Of a stretch of 64,000 nt of DNA, positions 37,814-46,521 are shown piece by piece (position 1 is the stretch's first letter; each line of letters begins with the position of its first letter). The position numbers and the translations under genes are program-made. The notes under the pieces are model-generated. The model was not told the origin of the DNA and did no database searches. It was given only the letters and a program-made list of their open reading frames with translations. The DNA is from Candidatus Enterousia sp. (GTDB lineage Bacteria > Pseudomonadota > Alphaproteobacteria > Rs-D84): NCBI GenBank assembly GCA_045647355.1, contig JAZRMF010000001.1:81714-145713 (forward strand). The letters run 5' to 3'.

Positions 37814-37935
37814 GGGGCGACTCTCTCTTGGCAAGTATATTATCGAAAAATATAAAAAAATTAAAGAATAAAAAACTTGACAACACGATTTTTTGTATTA
37901 TATTGTTCCACAGAAGGTAACCAAGAGGTGCATAA

Positions 37936-39465
37936 ATGAATGATTTATTAGATATTCTTAAACAGATGGGTATCACACCAACTGATGCTGATGATGAAAC
38001 AAAAAAGGCTTTATTAAAGTCTGTTGGATTACCGGCGGATGTTTTGGACCCAAAAAATGTATTTTTGATGAACGTGGATGATTTAGAAGCGGTTGCTGGC
38101 AATAAACGTATTGCGGGTATATCAAAAGGAAAAGAACCAGATTTGAGTCCTGAATTTGTTATGAAACACCTGAAGTTTTCACAAAAGGAAATCAAGTCTT
38201 TATTGTATTTGAAAGTGACAGTAGAAGAAGCAATATTTATAAGTGAAGCCCCAAAGAGTATAAACAAAATAGGGTTGTTACTTGCATTGCGTGGTATGCA
38301 ATATAGCAAAGTGCAAAATAGCAGCCAGGGTGTAGAAATAATCACCAAATACCCAGAATATGTACCAGAAAATGCCAAAGAATACCTTAATGGCATAATA
38401 CATAAACAAGAAGTTGGTAAATCTGGTAACGTGACAGATATTGAATTATTAGATGAAAAAGAAAAATGGATAATGAACGGTGTTGTTTCTGGAAATGTTG
38501 CTGTCGCGTGCAACGGTATTTTGGCCGATTACCCTGGTAAACTTGTACGGGTCAAAGGTGATTTGGATTTAAGAAAATGTATCGATAAAAAATCCGAATT
38601 GGATGACTCGTTCCTTAGTCGTGTTATCGTTGGTGGTGATTTGTATGTATCAAAGTACAGCAAAACATTGCCAAGAAAAGTACAAGGTACTGTTTACTTT
38701 GTAAGTTTGGGTAAAGGTGATGCAGAAAAAGGTGTGCCAAGTTATATCACAAAGGATACTGTATTTCCTGTGACAGAAAAAATAGATTGCTCGTACAGTA
38801 TCAGTGGTTTTGATGTATTCTTTACCACAGATGAAAAGGGTGAATTGGTTGGTACATTGCCAGATAGTTTAAAAACATTGGTTGTTGAACCAGGATTTCT
38901 TAGAAAAGATTATATCTACAAAAATCTTGACGCTGTGTTAAAGTTTATCGAATTGTATCAAGGTGTTGTCGTTGTTGATACCAAAGGCAATATTTTGTTG
39001 AACAAACTTATAGAAATATGCGACGAAATTGATGCCAAGAAAACACAGGTACAGGAAGAAAAAACAGTTAAACCAGTTGAAAGAACAACAACATTAATAG
39101 ATGCTGAAGAGAAAAGATTGGGTACAGATTTAACTGTTATGGATTTGTTGATGTACGTGCGTTCAATTCCAGAAAAATATGGTAAAGATAAGTTTTCAGA
39201 TAAAGAATTAAGAAACCTTATCAAAGAAGCCTTGAAATATACAAACCTTACCAAGAAAAAGGTTACGGATAAAGAAGGCAACATTGTAGATACTATTAAT
39301 TTTTCTGAATTCAATACGTTTATCGCAAATTTGGATAAGGTTATTGAAGAACGTAAACCTAAGAAAAATGATGGTAATTCAGATGGCGATGTTGATTTGT
39401 CATTCTTGGAAGATGGTAGTTTAGCCACACAAAAAATGGCAGATTTGTCGCATCCTGCGCACTAA
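37936..39465 (+). CDS. Hypothetical protein (509 aa) with possible short beta-solenoid/LRR-like segments
   Basis: TTGACA promoter and AAGAGG SD; VKGDLDL, VGGDLYV and TLPDSLKTLVV segments. Confidence 0.75.
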   Translation: MNDLLDILKQMGITPTDADDETKKALLKSVGLPADVLDPKNVFLMNVDDLEAVAGNKRIAGISKGKEPDLSPEFVMKHLKFSQKEIKSLLYLKVTVEEAIFISEAPKSINKIGLLLALRGMQYSKVQNSSQGVEIITKYPEYVPENAKEYLNGIIHKQEVGKSGNVTDIELLDEKEKWIMNGVVSGNVAVACNGILADYPGKLVRVKGDLDLRKCIDKKSELDDSFLSRVIVGGDLYVSKYSKTLPRKVQGTVYFVSLGKGDAEKGVPSYITKDTVFPVTEKIDCSYSISGFDVFFTTDEKGELVGTLPDSLKTLVVEPGFLRKDYIYKNLDAVLKFIELYQGVVVVDTKGNILLNKLIEICDEIDAKKTQVQEEKTVKPVERTTTLIDAEEKRLGTDLTVMDLLMYVRSIPEKYGKDKFSDKELRNLIKEALKYTNLTKKKVTDKEGNIVDTINFSEFNTFIANLDKVIEERKPKKNDGNSDGDVDLSFLEDGSLATQKMADLSHPAH

Positions 39466-39521
39466 TTAAACATATTTTGTTTGACAATAATAAAATATGA
39501 TTTATAATTAGTGCCGTTTAT

Positions 39522-39598
<77 letters not shown>

Positions 39599-39606
39599 GT
39601 TAAAAT

Positions 39607-39636
39607 AAAAAATACACCCATCGTGGTGTATTTTTT
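39607..39636 (+). terminator. Terminator after tRNA-fMet
   Basis: AAAAAATACACC-CATCGT-GGTGTATTTTTT. Confidence 0.8.
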
Positions 39637-39678
39637 GTTTTAATAGTTTTGATGGTTGAATCACCGAAGCAAGGTGGT

Positions 39679-39948
39679 TCACCACAAACGAAAGCCAGAC
39701 GTAAGTATGGCGGTCGCCAATTTGGCGATGAGCGCAGTTGCCGCGTAAGCGAAATCCATCCCCCGCAACCACTGTTTACAACCGTTCGATTTTTTTAGTA
39801 AATCGAACGGTTTTTTCAGAGAAATCCAAGCTTTTTTGTCAGTGATGCTCGAGTTCAAAAGTACAAGTTTCAAAAATGCTCGTTTTTGCTCAACTTTTGA
39901 ACTCTTTAATAAAAACTTAGCATTTCCAATGATTTTTTTTGACTTTTG
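39679..39948 (-). pseudogene. C-terminal remnant of a large serine recombinase reading into the att repeat
   Basis: AKFLLKSSKVEQKRAFLKLVLLNSSITDKKAWISLKKPFDLLKKSNGCKQWLRGMD resembles tRNA-targeting recombinase C-termini; no catalytic N-terminus present. Confidence 0.65.
39752..39771 (+). repeat. att-like direct repeat of the tRNA-fMet 3' end
   Basis: AAATCCATCCCCCGCAACCA is identical to 39579-39598 (20 bp). Confidence 0.9.
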
Positions 39949-39986
39949 TTATGGTTGTAGTATAAATAGCCTGATGGAGCAAAAGC

Positions 39987-40394
39987 ATGAAGTCGAAATA
40001 TGTACACTCAAAAAAAGAAAATTTAGACCAACTGGTTCGTGAATATGAAAACGAACGTCTGCAAAAGATAGCAGAAAGAACAGATAATAATAAATATATG
40101 GAATCTCTGGCTTTGGCAAAGTTGGAGTATCAAGAGGAACAAAAAAGTACATCTTATGATGAATCTGTTATAGACTTATCATTAGGTAGTTTTGATCAAA
40201 GAATGAGATGGTGGACGGCGATACATTATGAGAACCTTGCAACCAAAATGTTTAATCTATATTTAAATAAAAATGTTTATCGAATAAGGCCTTTGCCTGA
40301 TTTGATTACCATAATGAAAGAACCAAAAAAATATGGTGGGTATCGTTTTGGTGTAGATTATCGGAAATTTTACGATAGATATGTAAAATCATAA
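39987..40394 (+). CDS. Hypothetical protein (135 aa), island cargo
   Basis: GGAG SD; TTGACT-16-TATAAA promoter upstream. Confidence 0.7.
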   Translation: MKSKYVHSKKENLDQLVREYENERLQKIAERTDNNKYMESLALAKLEYQEEQKSTSYDESVIDLSLGSFDQRMRWWTAIHYENLATKMFNLYLNKNVYRIRPLPDLITIMKEPKKYGGYRFGVDYRKFYDRYVKS

Positions 40395-40410
40395 ATCTCT
40401 CGCCCCATTT

Positions 40411-40563
40411 CTAACAATTCGGCTCGAGAATTGCACACACTGCACAACCAGAGTTTCAAAACTTGCCAATCGGGGCAAGTTTTCTTTTGTTTCGTAATAC
40501 TTTCACAAAGTTCGAAAGTTAAAGTTTAAAATATTGTGATTTTTCGGCACTTTTGAACTCTTT
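40411..40563 (-). pseudogene. Second, more degenerate serine recombinase C-terminal remnant
   Basis: Frameshifted KSSKV...LSNF...NSGC, colinear with the 39679-39948 remnant; shared ACTTTTGAACTCTTT. Confidence 0.45.
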
Positions 40564-40581
40564 GCGGTATAATAGTAAACT

Positions 40582-40735
40582 ATGAAAGCATTTACTTTAT
40601 ATCAACCTTATGCTACTGCGATAGCGCGTGGATTAAAAAAACACAAAACGTTATGGAATAAATGATATAGAATATGGAGAAATAATAGCAATTTGTGAAT
40701 TGCAAGACTGTATTGAAATGACAAAAGCTTTCTAT
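40582..40735 (+). pseudogene. ASCH domain pseudogene
   Basis: MKAFTLYQPYATAIARGLKK followed by a stop; another frame gives YGEIIAICELQDCIEMT, typical of ASCH proteins. Confidence 0.65.
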
Positions 40736-40744
40736 GCCAATAAA

Positions 40745-41641
40745 TTACGAATAAATATTTTTATAAAAATCGTGTTTAAACTCTTTTACTGTTTTATATC
40801 TATCGTTTTTATCGTAAGCCGTTGCTTTTAATAATACATTATAAATATCGTTATTTAATTCAAATTCTTCTAATTTATTTGGTATAAAACACCCTTTGTT
40901 GTATCTCTCTTGTATATTTGATGGATTGCTGAACATATCGAATATAATTGCGCCCAATGTAAATAATGATGTTTGTTCGTCTATTATTGCACCTAATTCA
41001 TTTTCTTCGGGAGCTTTTAATCTTTTAGTTCCAAAATAATCTTTTCCTAAATCATTTACTGTGGGCATTTTTCTAAATAAATCTATATCACAAAAAGTGA
41101 CATTATCATTTTCAAAATCATAAATTATACTGCTATCGTAAAAATCTACTGCAACGTATCCCGTATCAATAAATGATTCAAAAAATGAAAATAATTTATC
41201 TGCAACTTTTAATCTTTTTTCTATTGGTAATGATTTGAATTTCATCAAAGGGGTTGTTTCTTTGGTCTTTTCATATCTATCAAAATTCCAATGATCAAAC
41301 AAACACTCACCTTTGGCATATTCATAAATTACAACATAAAAATCTTTATATTCAAAAGCATCCACCAGTTTAATCAAATTTTCATGTTTGATATCTTTAT
41401 ATTTTACTACAGCTTCTTTTAATAATTTAATCGATTCTTCTTCACTTATTTCAGCATTAACCGTTTTTGCACCTGCAATTTTGAAAAAATACTTTTTACT
41501 GTCCTTTTTTATACCGAAAGATATACAACCACTGCCAGTTTCATCTATAACATTAAATACTGTTCCATAATCATTTAACCAAGAAAAATCTTGATATTCT
41601 TTTAATTTAAATTCTATTCCATCTATAATTTGTTTAATCAT
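40745..41641 (-). CDS. Ser/Thr protein kinase-like protein
   Basis: YFFKIAG, HENLIKLV, degenerate catalytic loop AVDFYDSSII, FCDID, KAPEE and RYKTVKEF; very AT-rich. Confidence 0.75.
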   Translation of the reverse strand: MIKQIIDGIEFKLKEYQDFSWLNDYGTVFNVIDETGSGCISFGIKKDSKKYFFKIAGAKTVNAEISEEESIKLLKEAVVKYKDIKHENLIKLVDAFEYKDFYVVIYEYAKGECLFDHWNFDRYEKTKETTPLMKFKSLPIEKRLKVADKLFSFFESFIDTGYVAVDFYDSSIIYDFENDNVTFCDIDLFRKMPTVNDLGKDYFGTKRLKAPEENELGAIIDEQTSLFTLGAIIFDMFSNPSNIQERYNKGCFIPNKLEEFELNNDIYNVLLKATAYDKNDRYKTVKEFKHDFYKNIYS

Positions 41642-41665
41642 ATTATTATCTTTTGTTTTTATGTC

Positions 41666-42118
41666 TTAATTAAGATTTTTTACATATACTCTGGTTGGTT
41701 TGCCTTCACGATTATTCATTGTTTTCCAGAATACGAAACCATATTTTTCATATAAACCTATTTCTTCGGTAGATATAAATACTTTTTCAATTTTATCAGA
41801 TTTTAATGTGTCACAAATATAATTAATCAATTTGCCAATATTGTTATTACCGCGATATTTTGAAAATGTGTATCCAAAACCAATCCATGGGGATAATTCT
41901 GGTGCGTCAATTTCATCTTGTTCGGCCAAGATTGCAAAAGAAACCAAATTATTGCCATCTGTAAGTAAAAAAACATCTGTTGATTTCCCGCATATTTGTT
42001 TTAATTTGTCGGTGTTTAACCATGAATACAAAAGTTTTGCCGCCGACCAATCTGCTTTACCTATCTCGTTTTTCCAGTATTCTTGATTTTTTGATTGATA
42101 ATATTTAATAATTTGCAC
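41666..42118 (-). CDS. GNAT family N-acetyltransferase
   Basis: PWIGFGYTFSKYRGNNNIG acetyl-CoA motif and GLYEKYGF. Confidence 0.85.
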   Translation of the reverse strand: MQIIKYYQSKNQEYWKNEIGKADWSAAKLLYSWLNTDKLKQICGKSTDVFLLTDGNNLVSFAILAEQDEIDAPELSPWIGFGYTFSKYRGNNNIGKLINYICDTLKSDKIEKVFISTEEIGLYEKYGFVFWKTMNNREGKPTRVYVKNLN

Positions 42119-42138
42119 GTGTTATCCTTTGAATCTAT

Positions 42139-42729
42139 TTAATCTTTTGCTTGTTTTTTCGGCAATACAAAATATATGTCTGCTTTTCTTGTTGGTAAAG
42201 ACGGATTGTTAGAATTATATAACCCGTTATTAATTTCTATTTCACCGATACCAATACCGGTACTTGTACGTGTATCGTTTTTATGCGGATATTGCGTAGA
42301 ATCTATTACACGTAAAATAGTACTGGTTTTATCATTGTTAATAATTTTATCAACAAACATGCAATGTCCATTGCCATCTGGAAAAACAACAACCAAAATA
42401 CATCCGGATACGGGTTTGTTTATAAAATCCCAGTATTTGAATTCTTTTTGGTGTTCGTAAAGAAATGTGAAGTCTTTACAAAAAAATCTGTTTATTTTTA
42501 GAAAATTGTATTGTTTTAAAAAAAGTCTTAATTCAACCAATGCGCGTTTGTATCCCATTTGTACCAAACACCAATTTATAAAACCGCTGCAATCCATATG
42601 AAAATATTGTTTGTTATCTAGTTTATCAATGTAATTTGAATGATTGTATTCAGAAACAAAATCATTACTGAAAAATTGTCTAAAAAAATCAATATCTGTT
42701 TGCACGGTTTGATTATACCAAAAAAACAA
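42139..42729 (-). CDS. NlpC/P60-like (papain-fold) protein
   Basis: MDCSGFINWCL catalytic Cys, GHCMFVD His and VIDST; start codon uncertain. Confidence 0.6.
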   Translation of the reverse strand: MFFWYNQTVQTDIDFFRQFFSNDFVSEYNHSNYIDKLDNKQYFHMDCSGFINWCLVQMGYKRALVELRLFLKQYNFLKINRFFCKDFTFLYEHQKEFKYWDFINKPVSGCILVVVFPDGNGHCMFVDKIINNDKTSTILRVIDSTQYPHKNDTRTSTGIGIGEIEINNGLYNSNNPSLPTRKADIYFVLPKKQAKD

Positions 42730-42854
42730 ATTAATGTAAATATAACAAATATCTAGTAAAATTCGGTGGTTATATCGGTTAGGGGTCTGATTGGCGGTGA
42801 AATATCACAAAATAGCCGATGGTTTATAATGATAATGACAAAATCTGTTAAATC

Positions 42855-42882
42855 TTGACATTTTAAATATTTGTGCTATATT
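42855..42882 (+). promoter_or_regulatory. Sigma70-like promoter for the paralog cluster
   Basis: TTGACA-16 nt-TATATT with extended -10; same TTGTGCTATATTT as at 7621. Confidence 0.65.
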
Positions 42883-42901
42883 TAACTACAAGAGGGTTAA
42901 G

Positions 42902-43774
42902 ATGGACAGATACGTACAAGAACCAATTCCAAATGTGTTAGAGGCGAAAGACTATGTTTTTCGTTCGTTGCGGGCCCATGATGAATACCATTTTTACAAT
43001 AAATATGTGCCACAAATAATTTCAACAAATGAACTTCGGCAAATTTATGAATTGAAAAATCATGTAACACCTGGGTCGCGTGTTTTAACGGTTTCTGCAT
43101 CAGGGGAACAGCCGTTGTTTTTTAAACAGTATGGCGCAGAATATGTACTGACTTTTGATATTTCGTATAATTCGTATTTATTGACATCGTTAAAGATTGC
43201 CGCATTACAGACCTTTACAAAACGTTGGGACTATGAAAAGTTCGTGCGCAGTTTAATAGATCATTGTAAACCGCAACAGTTAATGTCTACACCGGGTATG
43301 GACAAGGTTTTCAGAAACCTTAGTGATGTGCAAAAGAACCATATAAGTGTTATGGATAGAATAGGTATCCCGGTATTTGTGGACGATATCAAATGCCAAA
43401 TCCCTTATATTGGACAAGATGATTATGATAAATTAAGGGCCAGTGTAAAATCACCTTTTCCTTTTATTTGGACCGATATTACAGAATTAGATAAAAAACT
43501 GGGCGACGAAAAGTTTGATTTTGTTTATTATTCCAATATATTGGGATTCATACATCCGCACAAGGTCAGACAAGTTATGGAAAAAACAAAAAATTACGTA
43601 AATGCGGGTGGCAAAATCTTTTTGGTCGAAGATGTGCATATGGATTTAATAAAATCGGCGACTGACGATGTGTACAAGGCACCTGATTGGGATGTGCAAA
43701 TATTGCCATCGCCGCAGAACACTGGTTTTAACCAATTTGTTATTCAACGTGTACAATTTACAAAACAAAAATAA
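42902..43774 (+). CDS. DUF3419/BtaA-like SAM-dependent transferase, paralog 1
   Basis: STNE..RVLTVSASGEQ...TFDISYNSY.LTSLKIAAL...FDFVYYSNI. Confidence 0.65.
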   Translation: MDRYVQEPIPNVLEAKDYVFRSLRAHDEYHFYNKYVPQIISTNELRQIYELKNHVTPGSRVLTVSASGEQPLFFKQYGAEYVLTFDISYNSYLLTSLKIAALQTFTKRWDYEKFVRSLIDHCKPQQLMSTPGMDKVFRNLSDVQKNHISVMDRIGIPVFVDDIKCQIPYIGQDDYDKLRASVKSPFPFIWTDITELDKKLGDEKFDFVYYSNILGFIHPHKVRQVMEKTKNYVNAGGKIFLVEDVHMDLIKSATDDVYKAPDWDVQILPSPQNTGFNQFVIQRVQFTKQK

Positions 43775-43827
43775 CAAAACATTGACATTTTGTGTTATGT
43801 TTTTGTTTGGTTTACAAAGGATGTTAA

Positions 43828-44718
43828 ATGCCAAAGTATCACGAAGCACCAATACCAAATGTGGCGGATGCCATCAAAGAGGGAAAGCGAATATATTACT
43901 ATCGTATGTCGCATCCGTATAATGCGGATTTAAAAAAGATGTATGGTTCGTATAACCCGCAAATGGTGACAACAAACGAATTAAATCAGATTTTAAAATT
44001 AAGGTATTTTATTACCCCTGGGTCGAGTTTTCTTGGTACGTGTGGGTCGGGGGAACAGGCTTTGTTTGCGTATTTGTTTGGTGCAAAAAATAATGTGTTT
44101 TTTGATATTTCGTATAATGCGTATTGGTTAACTTGTTTAAAAATAGGGGCCATCAAAGCATTTGATAAACACACAGAATATGAGAATTTTGTTCAGGAAT
44201 TAAAGGAAAATTGCGGACCGGCGGGCAGTTTATTAAAAGTACCAAATATATGGCATGTATTAACGTATTTAACAGATGTTCAGGTAAAATACCTTGAACT
44301 TATGGATGTGGCCAGGATGCCTGTGGTGGTACGCAACGGAACGTGCCAGTTTTTTGATATAACCCAAACAGATTATGATATATTAAAACAATCGGTTGAA
44401 ATGCCGATACCATTTATTCGTACAGATATAAGAAATCTGGATGAAAAATTGGGTGAAGATAAATTTGATAATGTGTATTATTCTAATATCTTGTGTTGGG
44501 TTGAACCATATGAAGTTGAACCAATTTTGGAAAAAACTAAAAAATGCATAAAACCTGGCGGAAGGTTGTTTTTAATGGCGGACTGTGTTAGCTTTGATAA
44601 TATGTTGACGGCCGCGACAAATGTATATTCTGGGCCAGAATGGGATGTTGTTTTTTTACCAAAAGATGATGATATTTATCAAATAATTGTTCAGCGTGCA
44701 CAAAGTCGTAGTTATTAA
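43828..44718 (+). CDS. DUF3419/BtaA-like SAM-dependent transferase, paralog 2
   Basis: TTNE..SFLGTCGSGEQ...FFDISYNAY.LTCLKIGAI...FDNVYYSNI. Confidence 0.65.
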   Translation: MPKYHEAPIPNVADAIKEGKRIYYYRMSHPYNADLKKMYGSYNPQMVTTNELNQILKLRYFITPGSSFLGTCGSGEQALFAYLFGAKNNVFFDISYNAYWLTCLKIGAIKAFDKHTEYENFVQELKENCGPAGSLLKVPNIWHVLTYLTDVQVKYLELMDVARMPVVVRNGTCQFFDITQTDYDILKQSVEMPIPFIRTDIRNLDEKLGEDKFDNVYYSNILCWVEPYEVEPILEKTKKCIKPGGRLFLMADCVSFDNMLTAATNVYSGPEWDVVFLPKDDDIYQIIVQRAQSRSY

Positions 44719-44719
44719 C

Positions 44720-45595
44720 ATGATTAGATATAAAAGACCTTTGCCAGATATACAAGAAGCCGGGCGTGCCATAGAGCACATGTGTACCAGTTGTAAAGAA
44801 GAGGATTTTTATTGTAAATATACCCCGCAAATGGTGACAACAAACGAATTTTATCAAATTCGTGATATAGAACCATATATTACCAGTGGTGCAAAGGTAT
44901 TAACGGTTTGTGGGCCCGGTGAGCAACCGTTATTTCTAAAATCATATGGTGCGGGGGATATCGTCACTTTCGATATTTCTTATCATTCTTATTTGCTTAC
45001 ATCATTAAAGATTGCGGCATTACAATCATTTGATGATACGCAAGACTTTCGAAAATTTATAGATATTTTGTATAATAAACCAAGTGATTTATTAACAAAT
45101 CCTTTTATGTATAATGTGGTAAAAAAATTAAATAAAGTAGAAAAAAATTATCTTTTCAAAGCGGCGGATACTGCAACACATATATTTTGGTCTGCCCAAA
45201 GTTGTTTTTTTTATACAATGCCACAAAACTATTATGACAATGTACGAAATTTAGTTAAAAAACCATTTCCTTTTATTTGGACGAATATTACAGAACTTGG
45301 TGATAAATTAAAAATAGCAAACAGCAAAACCGGTAAATACAATGCTTTTGATATAATAGATTATTCTAATATTCTTGAATTTATGCAACCATATTATATT
45401 AGACAGGTTTTAGAGGACACGATTAACTTTATGAATCCAGATTGCAAATTATTTTTAACAGTACGAAACAAGGAAGAACGTATAGACTTGATAAAATGCG
45501 CGGTAGATGATGTTTATAATTCATCGGAATGGGCCATAGAATTGCAGCCGGAAAAACAGGGATTTAGGCAATTCATTATCCAACGCGCGCGATAG
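44720..45595 (+). CDS. DUF3419/BtaA-like SAM-dependent transferase, paralog 3
   Basis: TTNE..KVLTVCGPGEQ...TFDISYHSY.LTSLKIAAL...FDIIDYSNI. Confidence 0.65.
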   Translation: MIRYKRPLPDIQEAGRAIEHMCTSCKEEDFYCKYTPQMVTTNEFYQIRDIEPYITSGAKVLTVCGPGEQPLFLKSYGAGDIVTFDISYHSYLLTSLKIAALQSFDDTQDFRKFIDILYNKPSDLLTNPFMYNVVKKLNKVEKNYLFKAADTATHIFWSAQSCFFYTMPQNYYDNVRNLVKKPFPFIWTNITELGDKLKIANSKTGKYNAFDIIDYSNILEFMQPYYIRQVLEDTINFMNPDCKLFLTVRNKEERIDLIKCAVDDVYNSSEWAIELQPEKQGFRQFIIQRAR

Positions 45596-45653
45596 ACAGA
45601 AAATTGTACGAATTTACGTTTTTTGTGTTATAATAACCCCAAGAGGTTTTGAA

Positions 45654-46442
45654 ATGATAAGATATTATTGTAGTGGTTTTGATGTCGAGAATTCTTTTGG
45701 ACATGGGTTGGGTGAAAAGTTCAAATCTGAATTAAAAAAGACAGACAGTATTGTTTATATTCCTGGGGGCCCAAAAAAGGTGGAAAAATCAATTGAGAAA
45801 TATTTACCTTTGTTTCGCAAGCATTTTGCCACGTGTCAAATTCATTTTGAAACAGAAAATCTGATTACCCCGGATACACCATCTGCGATGGCCCAGAATA
45901 TGGTAAAAAATGCCGACTTTGTAATGCTGATGGGTGGTGACCCAATTATGCAGAAAGATATGTGCGAAAAATTGGGTATAATGGATGCATTAAAAAATTA
46001 CAATAACGGAATAATGTTGGGGTACAGTGCGGGTGCAATGTTAATGTCAAAGTATATTATCATTACCCCAGGATGCGAGGAACACCCAGATCCAAAATCT
46101 AAAGATTCTTTTGTAACCACGGGATTAAATTTAGATGGATTATCTATTTATCCACACAATAATACCGCAGATATAGAATACCCAGATGTATTGGATTTAG
46201 ATGGCGAAGTATATAGAAAGTCTGATTTAATTCAGGTTGCCAAAGATTACGGCGAATATTATTTATTGCAGGATAATAAACGCGAAACAGGCAAGGTTGA
46301 TGTCAGTTTGATAAAGTCCATTGATGGAAAGATTACCACATATATCGAAAATGCCGGTAAGATTTGGGTTGTGGGCAGTGGTGGTATAAAACTGTATAAT
46401 AATAGTATCACGCCTATAATGAAAAAAGATCGTGAATATTAA
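45654..46442 (+). CDS. Peptidase S51 (dipeptidase E) family, type 1 glutamine amidotransferase-like
   Basis: ADFVMLMGGD, nucleophile elbow GYSAGAM, GLNL...IYPH. Confidence 0.8.
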   Translation: MIRYYCSGFDVENSFGHGLGEKFKSELKKTDSIVYIPGGPKKVEKSIEKYLPLFRKHFATCQIHFETENLITPDTPSAMAQNMVKNADFVMLMGGDPIMQKDMCEKLGIMDALKNYNNGIMLGYSAGAMLMSKYIIITPGCEEHPDPKSKDSFVTTGLNLDGLSIYPHNNTADIEYPDVLDLDGEVYRKSDLIQVAKDYGEYYLLQDNKRETGKVDVSLIKSIDGKITTYIENAGKIWVVGSGGIKLYNNSITPIMKKDREY

Positions 46443-46521
46443 ATCGATATAACTGGCGGTTTGGGACGATTCCCAATGTAGACTTGAAATATGGTTTTTT
46501 TATTGGTAAAATCTAAACGTT

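What the first reader, a model, noticed from the sequence alone, without database searches (positions are those of the whole stretch)
39579..42729. Decayed integrative island at tRNA-fMet with a serine recombinase C-terminus overlapping the att site
The last 20 bp of the tRNA are repeated at 39752-39771. On the minus strand a recombinase-like C-terminal peptide (...ISLKKPFDLLKKSNGCKQWLRGMD) reads straight through that repeat, an arrangement I associate with tRNA-targeting large serine recombinases. The catalytic part is missing. Very AT-rich cargo follows (kinase-like, GNAT, NlpC/P60-like), consistent with horizontal acquisition.
Basis: partly seen in the sequence, partly recalled or inferred. 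Interest (0 to 1): 0.55.

Follow-up and report, generated by a model that had tools for sequence, protein, structure and literature searches.

The report
tRNA-linked structured repeat behind tRNA-fMet
The repeated tRNA end is real, but it closes a small folded non-coding element of a family found behind many tRNA genes in these tiny gut bacteria (much like the poorly understood tRNA-linked repeats of E. coli); it is not a recombinase stump, and the AT-rich genes beyond it are swappable accessory cassettes.

Summary
The 20-nt copy of the tRNA-fMet 3' end (39752-39771) is real and not chance. The recombinase reading fails. The "peptide" is the reverse translation of the tRNA tail, it matches no Pfam family, and six-frame searches find no resolvase, recombinase or integrase domain in the window.

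The two repeats enclose only 153 bp: terminator T1 plus a ~107-nt folded body, followed by terminator T2. My covariance model of this unit hits 114 of 151 genomes of the genus (Candidatus Enterousia, ruminant gut). Four helices show compensatory changes. Hits lie behind about ten different tRNA species, each carrying that tRNA's own tail and sense and antisense copies of its T-arm.

The layout matches E. coli tRNA-linked repeats (TLRs; PMC8144298). There is no sequence or Rfam relationship.

An earlier report of this scan described the same kind of element at tRNA-His and tRNA-Lys of this genome (e1-1253630).

The cargo is accessory. The kinase-GNAT pair is a 1.4-kb cassette found in 7 of 150 other genus genomes, in other contexts. 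Its nearest outside relatives are in gut Bacilli. Real islands at this tRNA in relatives use P4-type tyrosine integrases.

Function and origin of the element are unproven; no RNA evidence was obtained.

The parts
39481..39508 (+). Promoter-like site of the tRNA-fMet transcription unit (TTGACA, 16 nt, TATAAT)
   Evidence: 12 of 12 hexamer matches. The same arrangement is visible upstream of the tRNA in relatives. Consensus match only.
39522..39598 (+). Initiator tRNA-Met(CAT) gene with encoded CCA
   Evidence: ARAGORN; Rfam tRNA 64.4 bits; C1:A72 mismatch read from the sequence.
39599..39644 (+). Terminator T1: 20-bp hairpin with an A-tract before and a U-tract after
   Evidence: Terminator scan. 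Fold -21.3 kcal/mol, z -7.5. The same type of terminator follows tRNA-fMet in relatives with and without the element.
39645..39751 (+). Structured body of the tRNA-linked element. 5' arm 39648-39655 pairs with 39684-39690. hp1 is 39657-39665/39673-39681: its 5' strand is antisense to the tRNA T-arm and its 3' strand GGTGGTTCA is a sense copy of the T-stem plus loop. hp2 is 39694-39711, hp3 is 39714-39728, and the variable hp4 region is 39732-39751.
   Evidence: Fold z -2.6. Compensatory changes on a MAFFT alignment: 92% paired, 9 pairs changed on both sides, 0 of 500 shuffles as high. The same on 64 model-aligned copies. Model R1 scores it 123 bits. No Rfam family at E<=1.
39752..39771 (+). 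Tail: exact copy of the last 20 nt of tRNA-fMet, running from the T-loop to CCA
   Evidence: In relatives the tail follows each species' own tRNA variant.
39780..39818 (+). Terminator T2: 13-bp hairpin followed by UUUUUU
   Evidence: Fold -19.1 kcal/mol, z -4.8.
39851..39907 (+). Inverted-repeat module (GTTCAAAAGT ... ACTTTTGAAC), first copy
   Evidence: Repeat D16. Aligns with the module that follows the tail in G012 and G007. Function untested.
39987..40394 (+). 135-aa ORF of unknown family, lying between the exact tail and the degenerate third tRNA-end copy
   Evidence: ORF list. Only a sub-threshold Pfam hit. Whether it is a real gene was not tested.
40437..40580 (+). Degenerate third copy of the tRNA end (about 40437-40451), terminator T3 (40458-40483), second copy of the inverted-repeat module, and TATAAT (40568-40573). 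This looks like the older flank that directly follows the tail in relatives.
   Evidence: Alignment with the post-tail flanks of G012 and G007; fold of T3.
40738..42146 (-). Kinase-like (40745-41641) plus GNAT-like (41666-42118) two-gene cassette, AT-rich
   Evidence: Pfam. 87-91% nucleotide identity with sharp ends in about 10 other Ca. Enterousia species, and a kinase-only form in 3, all in other contexts. Found in 7 of 150 other genus genomes. 70-79% protein identity to gut Bacilli MAGs.
42139..42729 (-). CHAP/NlpC-P60-like accessory gene
   Evidence: Weak CHAP match. Found in 16 of 150 other genus genomes, best 77%. A 66-68% relative lies next to the tRNA-fMet element in G118.
42902..45595 (+). 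Three tandem methyltransferase-like paralogs, inside the variable region that ends near 46460
   Evidence: Repeats D1-D4; Pfam. G215 has one copy at the equivalent place, and synteny resumes at ~46467.

Best explanation
The repeat is the 3' cap of a tRNA-linked repeat (TLR)-type element, not an att site read through by a recombinase gene.

The unit is tRNA-fMet, terminator T1, a ~107-nt folded non-coding body, an exact copy of the tRNA's last 20 nt, and terminator T2. It belongs to a family that is widespread in the genus and sits directly behind many different tRNA genes. Each copy carries three segments copied from its own tRNA: an antisense T-arm, a sense T-stem plus half loop, and the 3' tail.

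Most likely mode of action (inferred, not shown): it has no promoter of its own and is transcribed from the tRNA promoter by read-through of T1, as shown for E. coli RrB. Its tRNA-identical tail then lets the tRNA 3'-end machinery trim and stabilise it, giving a small structured RNA whose level follows tRNA transcription.

Units are gained, lost and multiplied by recombination between the tRNA end and the tail. The same short repeats make the site a docking place for integrase islands and accessory cassettes, which explains the AT-rich genes downstream.

Shown: the anatomy, conservation, covariation, link to many tRNAs, presence or absence exactly at the repeat, and absence of a recombinase. 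Inferred: transcription, processing, and any cellular function.

The confidence of 0.6 is for the whole statement. The identity as a TLR-type structured element alone I rate about 0.85, and the read-through RNA step alone about 0.45-0.5.
For: 1. Anatomy. The repeat is exact. T1 and T2 are strong hairpins with U-runs. I saw no promoter-like site between T1 and the body.

2. Conservation.
- The unit aligns at 70-85% in many congeners.
- Model R1 hits 114 of 151 genus genomes, and 90 of 109 good-quality ones.
- It hits 86 of 121 genomes of the family and 3 of 19 of a second family.

3. Structure.
- MAFFT alignment of 17 copies: 92.3% of cells paired, 9 pairs changed on both sides, 0 of 500 shuffles as high; slid controls give 26-52%.
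- 64 model-aligned copies: hp1, hp2 and hp3 are 95-99.7% paired, and 21 of 26 pairs changed on both sides.
- A further helix enclosing hp2 and hp3 shows 19-20 double changes.
- Copy lengths differ by steps that are not multiples of 3, which argues against coding.

4. Not tied to one tRNA.
- Hits lie behind fMet, a second Met(CAT), Ser, Val (two species), His, Arg, Pro (two species) and Ala tRNAs.
- 50 of 64 distinct copies lie directly behind a tRNA.
- The sense 9-nt T-arm copy is exact in 29 of 50, against 0 of 50 when compared with another locus's tRNA. The antisense copy is exact in 19 of 50, and within 1 mismatch in 39 of 50.
- This genome has five such loci: Val, fMet, Lys (two) and His.

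5. The tail follows the local tRNA variant (CCATC, CCATT, CCAAC, CCACA; CCCCGCA, TCCCGCA, CTCCGCA).

6. Filled and empty sites. 12 of 23 unselected congeners have a tail copy behind tRNA-fMet. G006 and G018 differ by exactly one unit at the repeat, with the same flank after it.

7. Same layout as the published E. coli TLRs. Those are 22 TLRs at 10 loci, 1-5 per locus, with 18-19 bp of 3' identity to the upstream gene. For three of them (RrA, RrB, RrF), a position between dual terminators and read-through transcription are reported (PMC8144298).

8. No recombinase.
Against: - No RNA evidence. In the three RNA-library runs that were laid, contigs cover the tRNA and 39755-39903 but not the body. 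These were contigs, two of them from polyA libraries, so this says nothing either way.
- T1 is a very strong terminator, so read-through could be low.
- Conserved pairing would also fit a folded single-stranded DNA or a recognition structure for an unknown mobilising enzyme.
- The 5' arm helix is weak (69-77% paired).
- This copy's hp4 region departs from the family consensus.
- There is no homology to the E. coli RtT family, so likeness to TLRs is one of layout only.
- The counts on alignment A4 lean towards the model structure, because the alignment was fitted to it.
Confidence: 0.6

Rival explanations
1. The unit is a gene-less integrative mini-element, like a cis-mobilisable element. On this reading, T1 plus the body is what remains of, or all there ever was of, an element that enters the tRNA 3' end by site-specific or short-homology recombination and is moved in trans. 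The fold would be needed for mobilisation, not for an RNA function.
For: - The direct repeat starts in the T-loop and ends at CCA, as in T-loop-class att sites (own knowledge: Williams 2002).
- Presence or absence falls exactly at the repeat.
- Tandem arrays of 2-3 units occur.
- Occupancy differs between species and between tRNAs.
- Terminators change places between the post-tRNA and post-tail positions in different species.
- P4-type integrase islands use the same tRNA in G021 and G004.
Against: - One core family is linked to about ten tRNA species, each with its own tail, in genomes of ~0.9 Mb. This genome holds only three tyrosine recombinases and one serine recombinase.
- The integrase islands in relatives use a repeat of at least 37 nt, and the resident unit lies beyond their attR. 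The islands' own ends give no hit to the model.
- Compensatory changes in four helices are not expected of protein-binding att arms.
- At the Val and Lys loci of this genome the repeat also includes the whole terminator (~54 nt), which points to local duplication or homologous recombination.
- The core motif occurs on only 1 of 2.9 million viral contigs, and there it again lies behind a tRNA.
Confidence: 0.25
2. The unit is a neutral leftover of a partial tandem duplication of the tRNA gene, with no function and no mobility.
For: Tail and terminator are duplicated together at the Val and Lys loci. Tandem units can be identical to each other.
Against: - Homologous cores occur behind many different tRNAs.
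- Helices are kept through double changes across more than 100 species.
- The tail and the T-arm copies stay matched to the local tRNA.
Confidence: 0.07
3. One reading: a decayed island whose large serine recombinase gene once read through the att site, leaving its C-terminal coding part at 39679-39873.
For: An open frame of 64 codons crosses the repeat. Accessory AT-rich genes follow.
Against: - The ORF matches no Pfam family at E<=0.1.
- No Resolvase or Recombinase domain is found in six frames in the window.
- The same DNA is a conserved structured element whose length varies out of frame between species.
- The WLRGMD letters are the reverse translation of the tRNA tail.
- The repeat pair encloses 153 bp, not the cargo.
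Confidence: 0.03

Closest known systems
tRNA-linked repeats (TLRs) of Escherichia coli K-12, including RrA/RrB/RrF and the tyrT-locus repeats (Egan and Landy 1978 and Rudd 1999, as cited in Stenum et al. 2021, PMC8144298)
   Same: - The unit lies immediately downstream of a tRNA (or rRNA) gene on the same strand.
- Its 3' end is an 18-19 bp (here 20 bp) copy of that gene's 3' end.
- There are one to several tandem units per locus.
- It is about 100-180 nt long.
- It lies between two terminators.
[quoted passage not shown]
   Different: - There is no sequence or structure relationship. Rfam RtT (RF00391) gives no hit at E<=1 in this genome but does hit the E. coli control.
- The host is a reduced-genome alphaproteobacterium.
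- The family has a conserved multi-helix core plus sense and antisense copies of the T-arm. I did not check whether E. coli TLRs have these.
- Nothing here bears on Hfq or CsrA binding.
att repeats of tRNA-integrating islands with P4-type tyrosine integrases, and their integrase-less derivatives (CIMEs)
   Same: A direct repeat of the tRNA 3' end; tandem accretion; presence or absence exactly at the repeat. Real islands of this kind sit at the same tRNA in G021 and G004.
   Different: - Only 153 bp are enclosed and there is no integrase.
- The same core is linked to about ten tRNA species.
- The unit carries internal T-arm copies and compensatory helices.
- The islands in relatives use a repeat of at least 37 nt and lie upstream of the resident unit.
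tRNA-like domain of tmRNA (two-piece form in Alphaproteobacteria)
   Same: A structured RNA that ends in a tRNA-like T-arm, acceptor strand and CCA.
   Different: The tail has initiator-tRNA letters and no 5' acceptor partner. The genome's real two-piece tmRNA lies elsewhere (C5:85876-86215, 171 bits).
Earlier reports of this scan on tRNA-tail-copying structured elements (e1-1253630 in this genome; e1-905543, e1-1219841, e1-2527337, e1-720555 elsewhere)
   Same: The same layout, and at His and Lys the same genome. The units are gene-less and folded, end in the neighbour tRNA's tail, and are absent from Rfam.
   Different: This copy has a different core (type A) from the Val, Lys and His copies of this genome; R1 finds only this copy here. 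Those reports are AI notes. The bolder 'guide' or 'mobile' readings in several of them were later marked as fallen.

Membership tests
Large serine recombinase (remnant) | Similarity to the Resolvase catalytic domain, the Recombinase domain or the C-terminal zinc-ribbon/coiled-coil region | tested here: not met
   The ORF 39679-39873 has 0 Pfam families at E<=0.1. Six-frame searches with PF00239 and PF07508 hit only C5:303933-304742.
tRNA-integrated genomic island | Direct repeats of the tRNA 3' part bracket the cargo | tested here: not met
   The exact pair brackets 153 bp. No other copy with up to 3 mismatches exists in 64 kb, and sensitive BLAST finds none. Only a degenerate copy near 40437-40451 precedes the cargo.
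tRNA-integrated genomic island | An integrase gene, or a recognisable remnant, next to an att site | tested here: not met
   All PF00589 matches lie outside the window. Relatives G021 and G004 do have one at this tRNA.
tRNA-integrated genomic island | Cargo patchy among relatives and of foreign composition or affinity | tested here: met
   GC 0.27-0.30. Kinase-like gene in 7 of 150 and CHAP-like gene in 16 of 150 other genus genomes. The cassette sits in other contexts and is 70-79% identical in protein to Bacilli MAGs.
tRNA-linked repeat (TLR), defined by layout | Lies directly downstream of a tRNA or rRNA gene, on the same strand | tested here: met
   The body starts 47 nt after the tRNA. 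50 of 64 family copies lie directly behind a tRNA.
tRNA-linked repeat (TLR), defined by layout | The 3' end is identical to the last ~18-19 nt of the upstream gene | tested here: met
   20 of 20 nt.
tRNA-linked repeat (TLR), defined by layout | Lies between two terminators | tested here: met
   T1 and T2.
tRNA-linked repeat (TLR), defined by layout | [quoted passage not shown] | tested here: inconclusive
   Only contigs of three RNA libraries could be laid, and none covers the body. Raw strand-specific reads are needed.
E. coli RtT/TLR sequence family (Rfam RF00391) | Match to the covariance model | tested here: not met
   No match at E<=1 in the genome; the E. coli control is found.
Any Rfam 15 family other than tRNA | Covariance-model match over the body | tested here: not met
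   Nothing at E<=1 over 39645-39751, nor over five typical copies in relatives.
tmRNA | Match to a tmRNA model | tested here: not met
   ARAGORN and RF00023 find nothing here. The real alpha_tmRNA is at C5:85876-86215.

The most novel reading that the evidence does not exclude
These units are a distinct kind of gene-less element that is built or re-addressed from the tRNA itself. A generic mechanism (not one integrase per tRNA) would copy the local T-arm in both senses, and the 3' tail, around a conserved folded core. The same core could then settle behind any tRNA gene, and the mirrored T-arm would be part of how the target is recognised or the unit is copied.
Probability: 0.15. Interest if true: 0.8.

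Novelty: new variant of a known kind. Interest (0 to 1): 0.4.

Why it matters
The report removes a false recombinase and island-boundary call.

More than 100 species and about ten tRNA specificities give enough variation to define a structure and to design expression and deletion tests.

If the RNA is made by terminator read-through, it would couple a small RNA to tRNA output in organisms with very few known regulators. If instead the units move, they are a cheap marker of how accessory cassettes gather behind tRNA genes.

In practice, annotators should not take a lone tRNA-end repeat as an island boundary.

Tried and rejected
- **RNA evidence.** Three RNA-library runs and one DNA run were laid. 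RNA contigs cover the tRNA and 39755-39903, but none covers the body. One contig gives a joint 39598>39755 marked 'between: not known', so it could be an empty site or a divergent unit. This gives no verdict on expression or on an empty allele.
- **Metagenome scans.** I searched for the empty junction and for any junction of this locus. Both gave 0 hits, so the collection lacks this organism and the result is uninformative.
- **tmRNA idea.** ARAGORN and RF00023 found no tmRNA although SmpB is present. I dropped the idea once RF01849 found the two-piece tmRNA elsewhere.
- **Phage origin.** The core motif occurs on 1 viral contig only, behind tRNA-Thr and probably in host flank.
- **Pairing of the 5' arm with the tail ('guide' idea).** No covariation beyond what shared descent from the tRNA gives. 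The arm pairs instead with the linker after hp1, and weakly.
- **Further tRNA fragments or flank-module copies beyond the cargo.** None found.
- **Small-protein reading of the body.** Rejected because of out-of-frame length variation and paired substitutions.
- **RNAalifold on the raw MAFFT alignment.** It recovered only hp1 and hp2 because hp3 and hp4 vary in length. I added hp3 by hand and then tested it.


Full report
**Observation**

ARAGORN and Rfam place a tRNA-Met(CAT) gene at 39522-39598 on the plus strand. Its 5' C and 3' A cannot pair, which marks a bacterial initiator tRNA (sequence). Its last 20 nt, AAATCCATCCCCCGCAACCA, recur exactly at 39752-39771. These are the only two matches in the window even with three mismatches allowed, and none was found in 100 shuffles. 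A contig from a DNA run spans 39575-39771, so the arrangement is not peculiar to this assembly, although that run may be the source sample.

The ORF continues past that peptide. The letters WLRGMD also appear in the minus-strand ORF over the tRNA gene itself (39518-39772), so they are just the reverse translation of the tRNA tail.

**No recombinase**

- The 64-residue ORF matches no Pfam family at E<=0.1.
- Six-frame searches of the whole 1.09-Mb genome find Resolvase and Recombinase domains only at C5:303933-304742, and Phage_integrase domains at three places outside the window.

**What lies between the repeats**

Only 153 bp lie between the two copies.
- Terminator T1 (39599-39644) is a 20-bp hairpin with a U-run.
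- A body of ~107 nt follows.
- After the second copy comes terminator T2 (39780-39818).

The body is G+C-richer than its surroundings and folds better than shuffles (z -2.6). No Rfam family other than tRNA matches at E<=1.

**The unit is conserved and folded**

The tRNA plus unit aligns at 70-85% in many congeners. Reading those copies shows hairpins whose two sides change together.
- On a plain MAFFT alignment of 17 copies, the helices I defined are 92.3% paired, and 9 pairs have changes on both sides. No shuffle in 500 reaches the observed values on four of five measures. Sliding the partners drops pairing to 26-52%.
- A covariance model built from that alignment (R1) hits 114 of 151 genus genomes, and 90 of 109 good-quality ones.
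- It hits 86 of 121 genomes of the family, 3 of 19 of a second family, and none in the four other families sampled in the order.
- On 64 distinct model-aligned copies, hp1, hp2 and hp3 are 95-99.7% paired and 21 of 26 pairs change on both sides. This alignment leans towards the model.
- A scan of column pairs adds a helix, consensus GCAAAA with UUUUGC, that encloses hp2 and hp3 and has 19-20 double changes.
- The 5' arm helix is weak (69-77%).
- Copy lengths range from 120 to 142 nt and differ out of frame, so the body is not coding.

**It is not specific to tRNA-fMet**

- In other genomes of the genus, R1 hits lie behind a second Met(CAT) tRNA and behind Ser-cga, Val-tac, Val-cac, His, Arg-tct, Pro-ggg, Pro-cgg and Ala-cgc. 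Usually they end in a 12-17-nt exact copy of that tRNA's end, and some form tandem arrays.
- Of 64 distinct copies, 57 have a same-strand tRNA within 1.2 kb upstream, and 50 lie directly behind it.
- Each copy carries a sense copy of its own tRNA's T-stem plus half loop. This is exact in 29 of 50, against 0 of 50 when compared with another locus's tRNA.
- Each also carries an antisense copy that forms the other strand of hp1. This is exact in 19 of 50 and within one mismatch in 39 of 50.
- In this genome five tRNAs have the layout: Val-tac, fMet, Lys-ctt, His and Lys-ttt. The other four use a different core, and at Val and Lys the repeat also covers the terminator.

**Gain and loss**

- In the first 24 genomes drawn as relatives, which were not chosen for this element, 12 of the 23 with a detectable tRNA-fMet have a tail copy downstream. 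Eight of these are exact, across four tRNA-tail variants.
- Sites with no tail copy in G008 and G014 keep a T1-type terminator.
- G006 and G018 have the same ~56-nt flank, with 3 differences. In G006 it comes after the tail and in G018 directly after the tRNA, so they differ by exactly one unit.
- Real islands exist at this tRNA in G021 and G004. They are 7.7-9 kb long, carry a P4-type tyrosine integrase (Arm-DNA-bind_3 plus Phage_integrase), and end in a tRNA fragment of at least 37 nt. The resident unit lies beyond that fragment.

**The downstream DNA**

- After T2 comes an inverted-repeat module and a 135-codon ORF. Near 40437-40451 there is a degenerate copy of the tRNA end, followed by a terminator, the same module and a TATAAT box. 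This arrangement directly follows the tail in G012 and G007. So 39772-40451 looks like a further insert placed in front of an older flank.
- The kinase-like and GNAT-like genes form a 1.4-kb block (40738-42146). It recurs at 87-91% nucleotide identity with the same ends in about ten other Ca. Enterousia species, and as a kinase-only form in three. In no case is it near tRNA-fMet. Several copies lie about 0.3-1.3 kb downstream of tRNA-Glu or tRNA-Ala genes.
- Only 7 of 150 other genus genomes have the kinase-like gene, and 16 of 150 have the CHAP-like gene.
- The nearest relatives of the kinase outside the genus are in gut Bacilli and Tenericutes-like MAGs, at 70-79% protein identity. This fits the low G+C.
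- Synteny with G215 resumes at ~46467. In G155 the whole block 37835-46460 is missing from this site and its tRNA-fMet unit lies elsewhere.

The record titles name the close relatives as Candidatus Enterousia or unnamed Alphaproteobacteria from ruminant guts.

**Comparison with what is known**

Stenum et al. 2021 (PMC8144298) describe the E. coli tRNA-linked repeats.
- There are 22 units at ten loci, with one to five per locus.
- Each ends in 18-19 bp identical to the 3' end of the upstream tRNA or rRNA gene.
- Their function is otherwise unknown.

The present unit meets every layout criterion I could test. It has no sequence or structural relationship to the Rfam RtT family. It is not a tmRNA, because the genome's two-piece tmRNA is at C5:85876-86215.

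**Verdict**

- The recombinase reading is wrong.
- The 'acquired cargo at a tRNA' part is right, but the boundary drawn from the repeat is not.
- The repeat belongs to a TLR-type structured element family. I rate this about 0.85. It is absent from Rfam 15, and I found no published description beyond the E. coli TLRs.
- I rate a read-through small RNA with tRNA-type 3' maturation as the most likely way it works, at about 0.45-0.5 for that step alone.
- The main rival is a gene-less recombining mini-element, at about 0.25.
- Earlier notes of this scan report the same kind of element in this genome and in other phyla. Their bolder 'guide' or 'mobile' readings were later marked as fallen, and my data do not rescue them.

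Noticed in passing
window 40738-42146: The kinase-like plus GNAT-like pair is a sharply bounded 1.4-kb cassette. It recurs at 87-91% nucleotide identity in about ten other Ca. Enterousia species, and as a kinase-only form (40738-41660) in three. All copies are in other contexts; several lie about 0.3-1.3 kb downstream of tRNA-Glu or tRNA-Ala genes. The nearest outside relatives are in gut Bacilli MAGs (70-79% protein identity). How it moves is unknown.
   Followed up: partly
window 39851-39907 and 40508-40573; L002 and L011 after the tail: An inverted-repeat module (GTTCRAAAGT ... ACTTTTGAAC) followed by TATAAT recurs after terminators behind tRNA-fMet in several species, and twice in this window. 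It could be an operator-promoter or a cassette junction.
   Followed up: partly
window 40583-40770: Short frames after the second module read like the two ends of a small ASCH-type protein (MKAFTLYQPYA..., ...GEIIAICELQDC...), broken by stop codons and cut off by the kinase cassette. This is read by eye only and was not tested against any library.
   Followed up: no
window 42902-45595: Three tandem paralogs of a methyltransferase-like gene (about 290-300 aa, 60-84% alike in patches at DNA level). The close relative G215 has one copy at the equivalent place.
   Followed up: partly
G000 C1:58509, C1:268755, C5:194322, C5:218075 (outside the window): Four more tRNA genes of this genome (Val-tac, Lys-ctt, His, Lys-ttt) are followed by a terminator, a ~110-135-nt element with a different shared core, and a copy of their own 3' end. 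At Val and Lys the repeat includes the whole terminator (~54 nt). His has a second tail copy 769 nt downstream.
   Followed up: partly
window 37835-46460 compared with L075 (G155) and L074 (G215): In G155 the LrgA/B-like genes (my reading of the ORFs, untested) abut the block that starts at ~46460 here. Its tRNA-fMet unit lies between the equivalents of window ~30200 and ~31085. So the whole tRNA-bearing block has moved in one lineage.
   Followed up: no
L076 (G021:C38) and L077 (G004:C6): Islands of 7.7-9 kb at tRNA-fMet carry a 392-aa P4-type integrase, a BRO-N or RhuM-family gene and a DUF5677 gene. They are bounded by the tRNA and a tRNA fragment of at least 37 nt.
   Followed up: partly
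G000 C5:85876-86215: ARAGORN and Rfam RF00023 both miss the tmRNA of this genome. The alphaproteobacterial two-piece model RF01849 finds it at 171 bits. SmpB is at C5:69510-69938.
   Followed up: yes
L174 11022-11419 (IMGVR_UViG_3300029770_000229): One viral-collection contig carries tRNA-Thr(tgt) followed by two tandem units that match model R1. This is probably host flank of a predicted prophage.
   Followed up: partly
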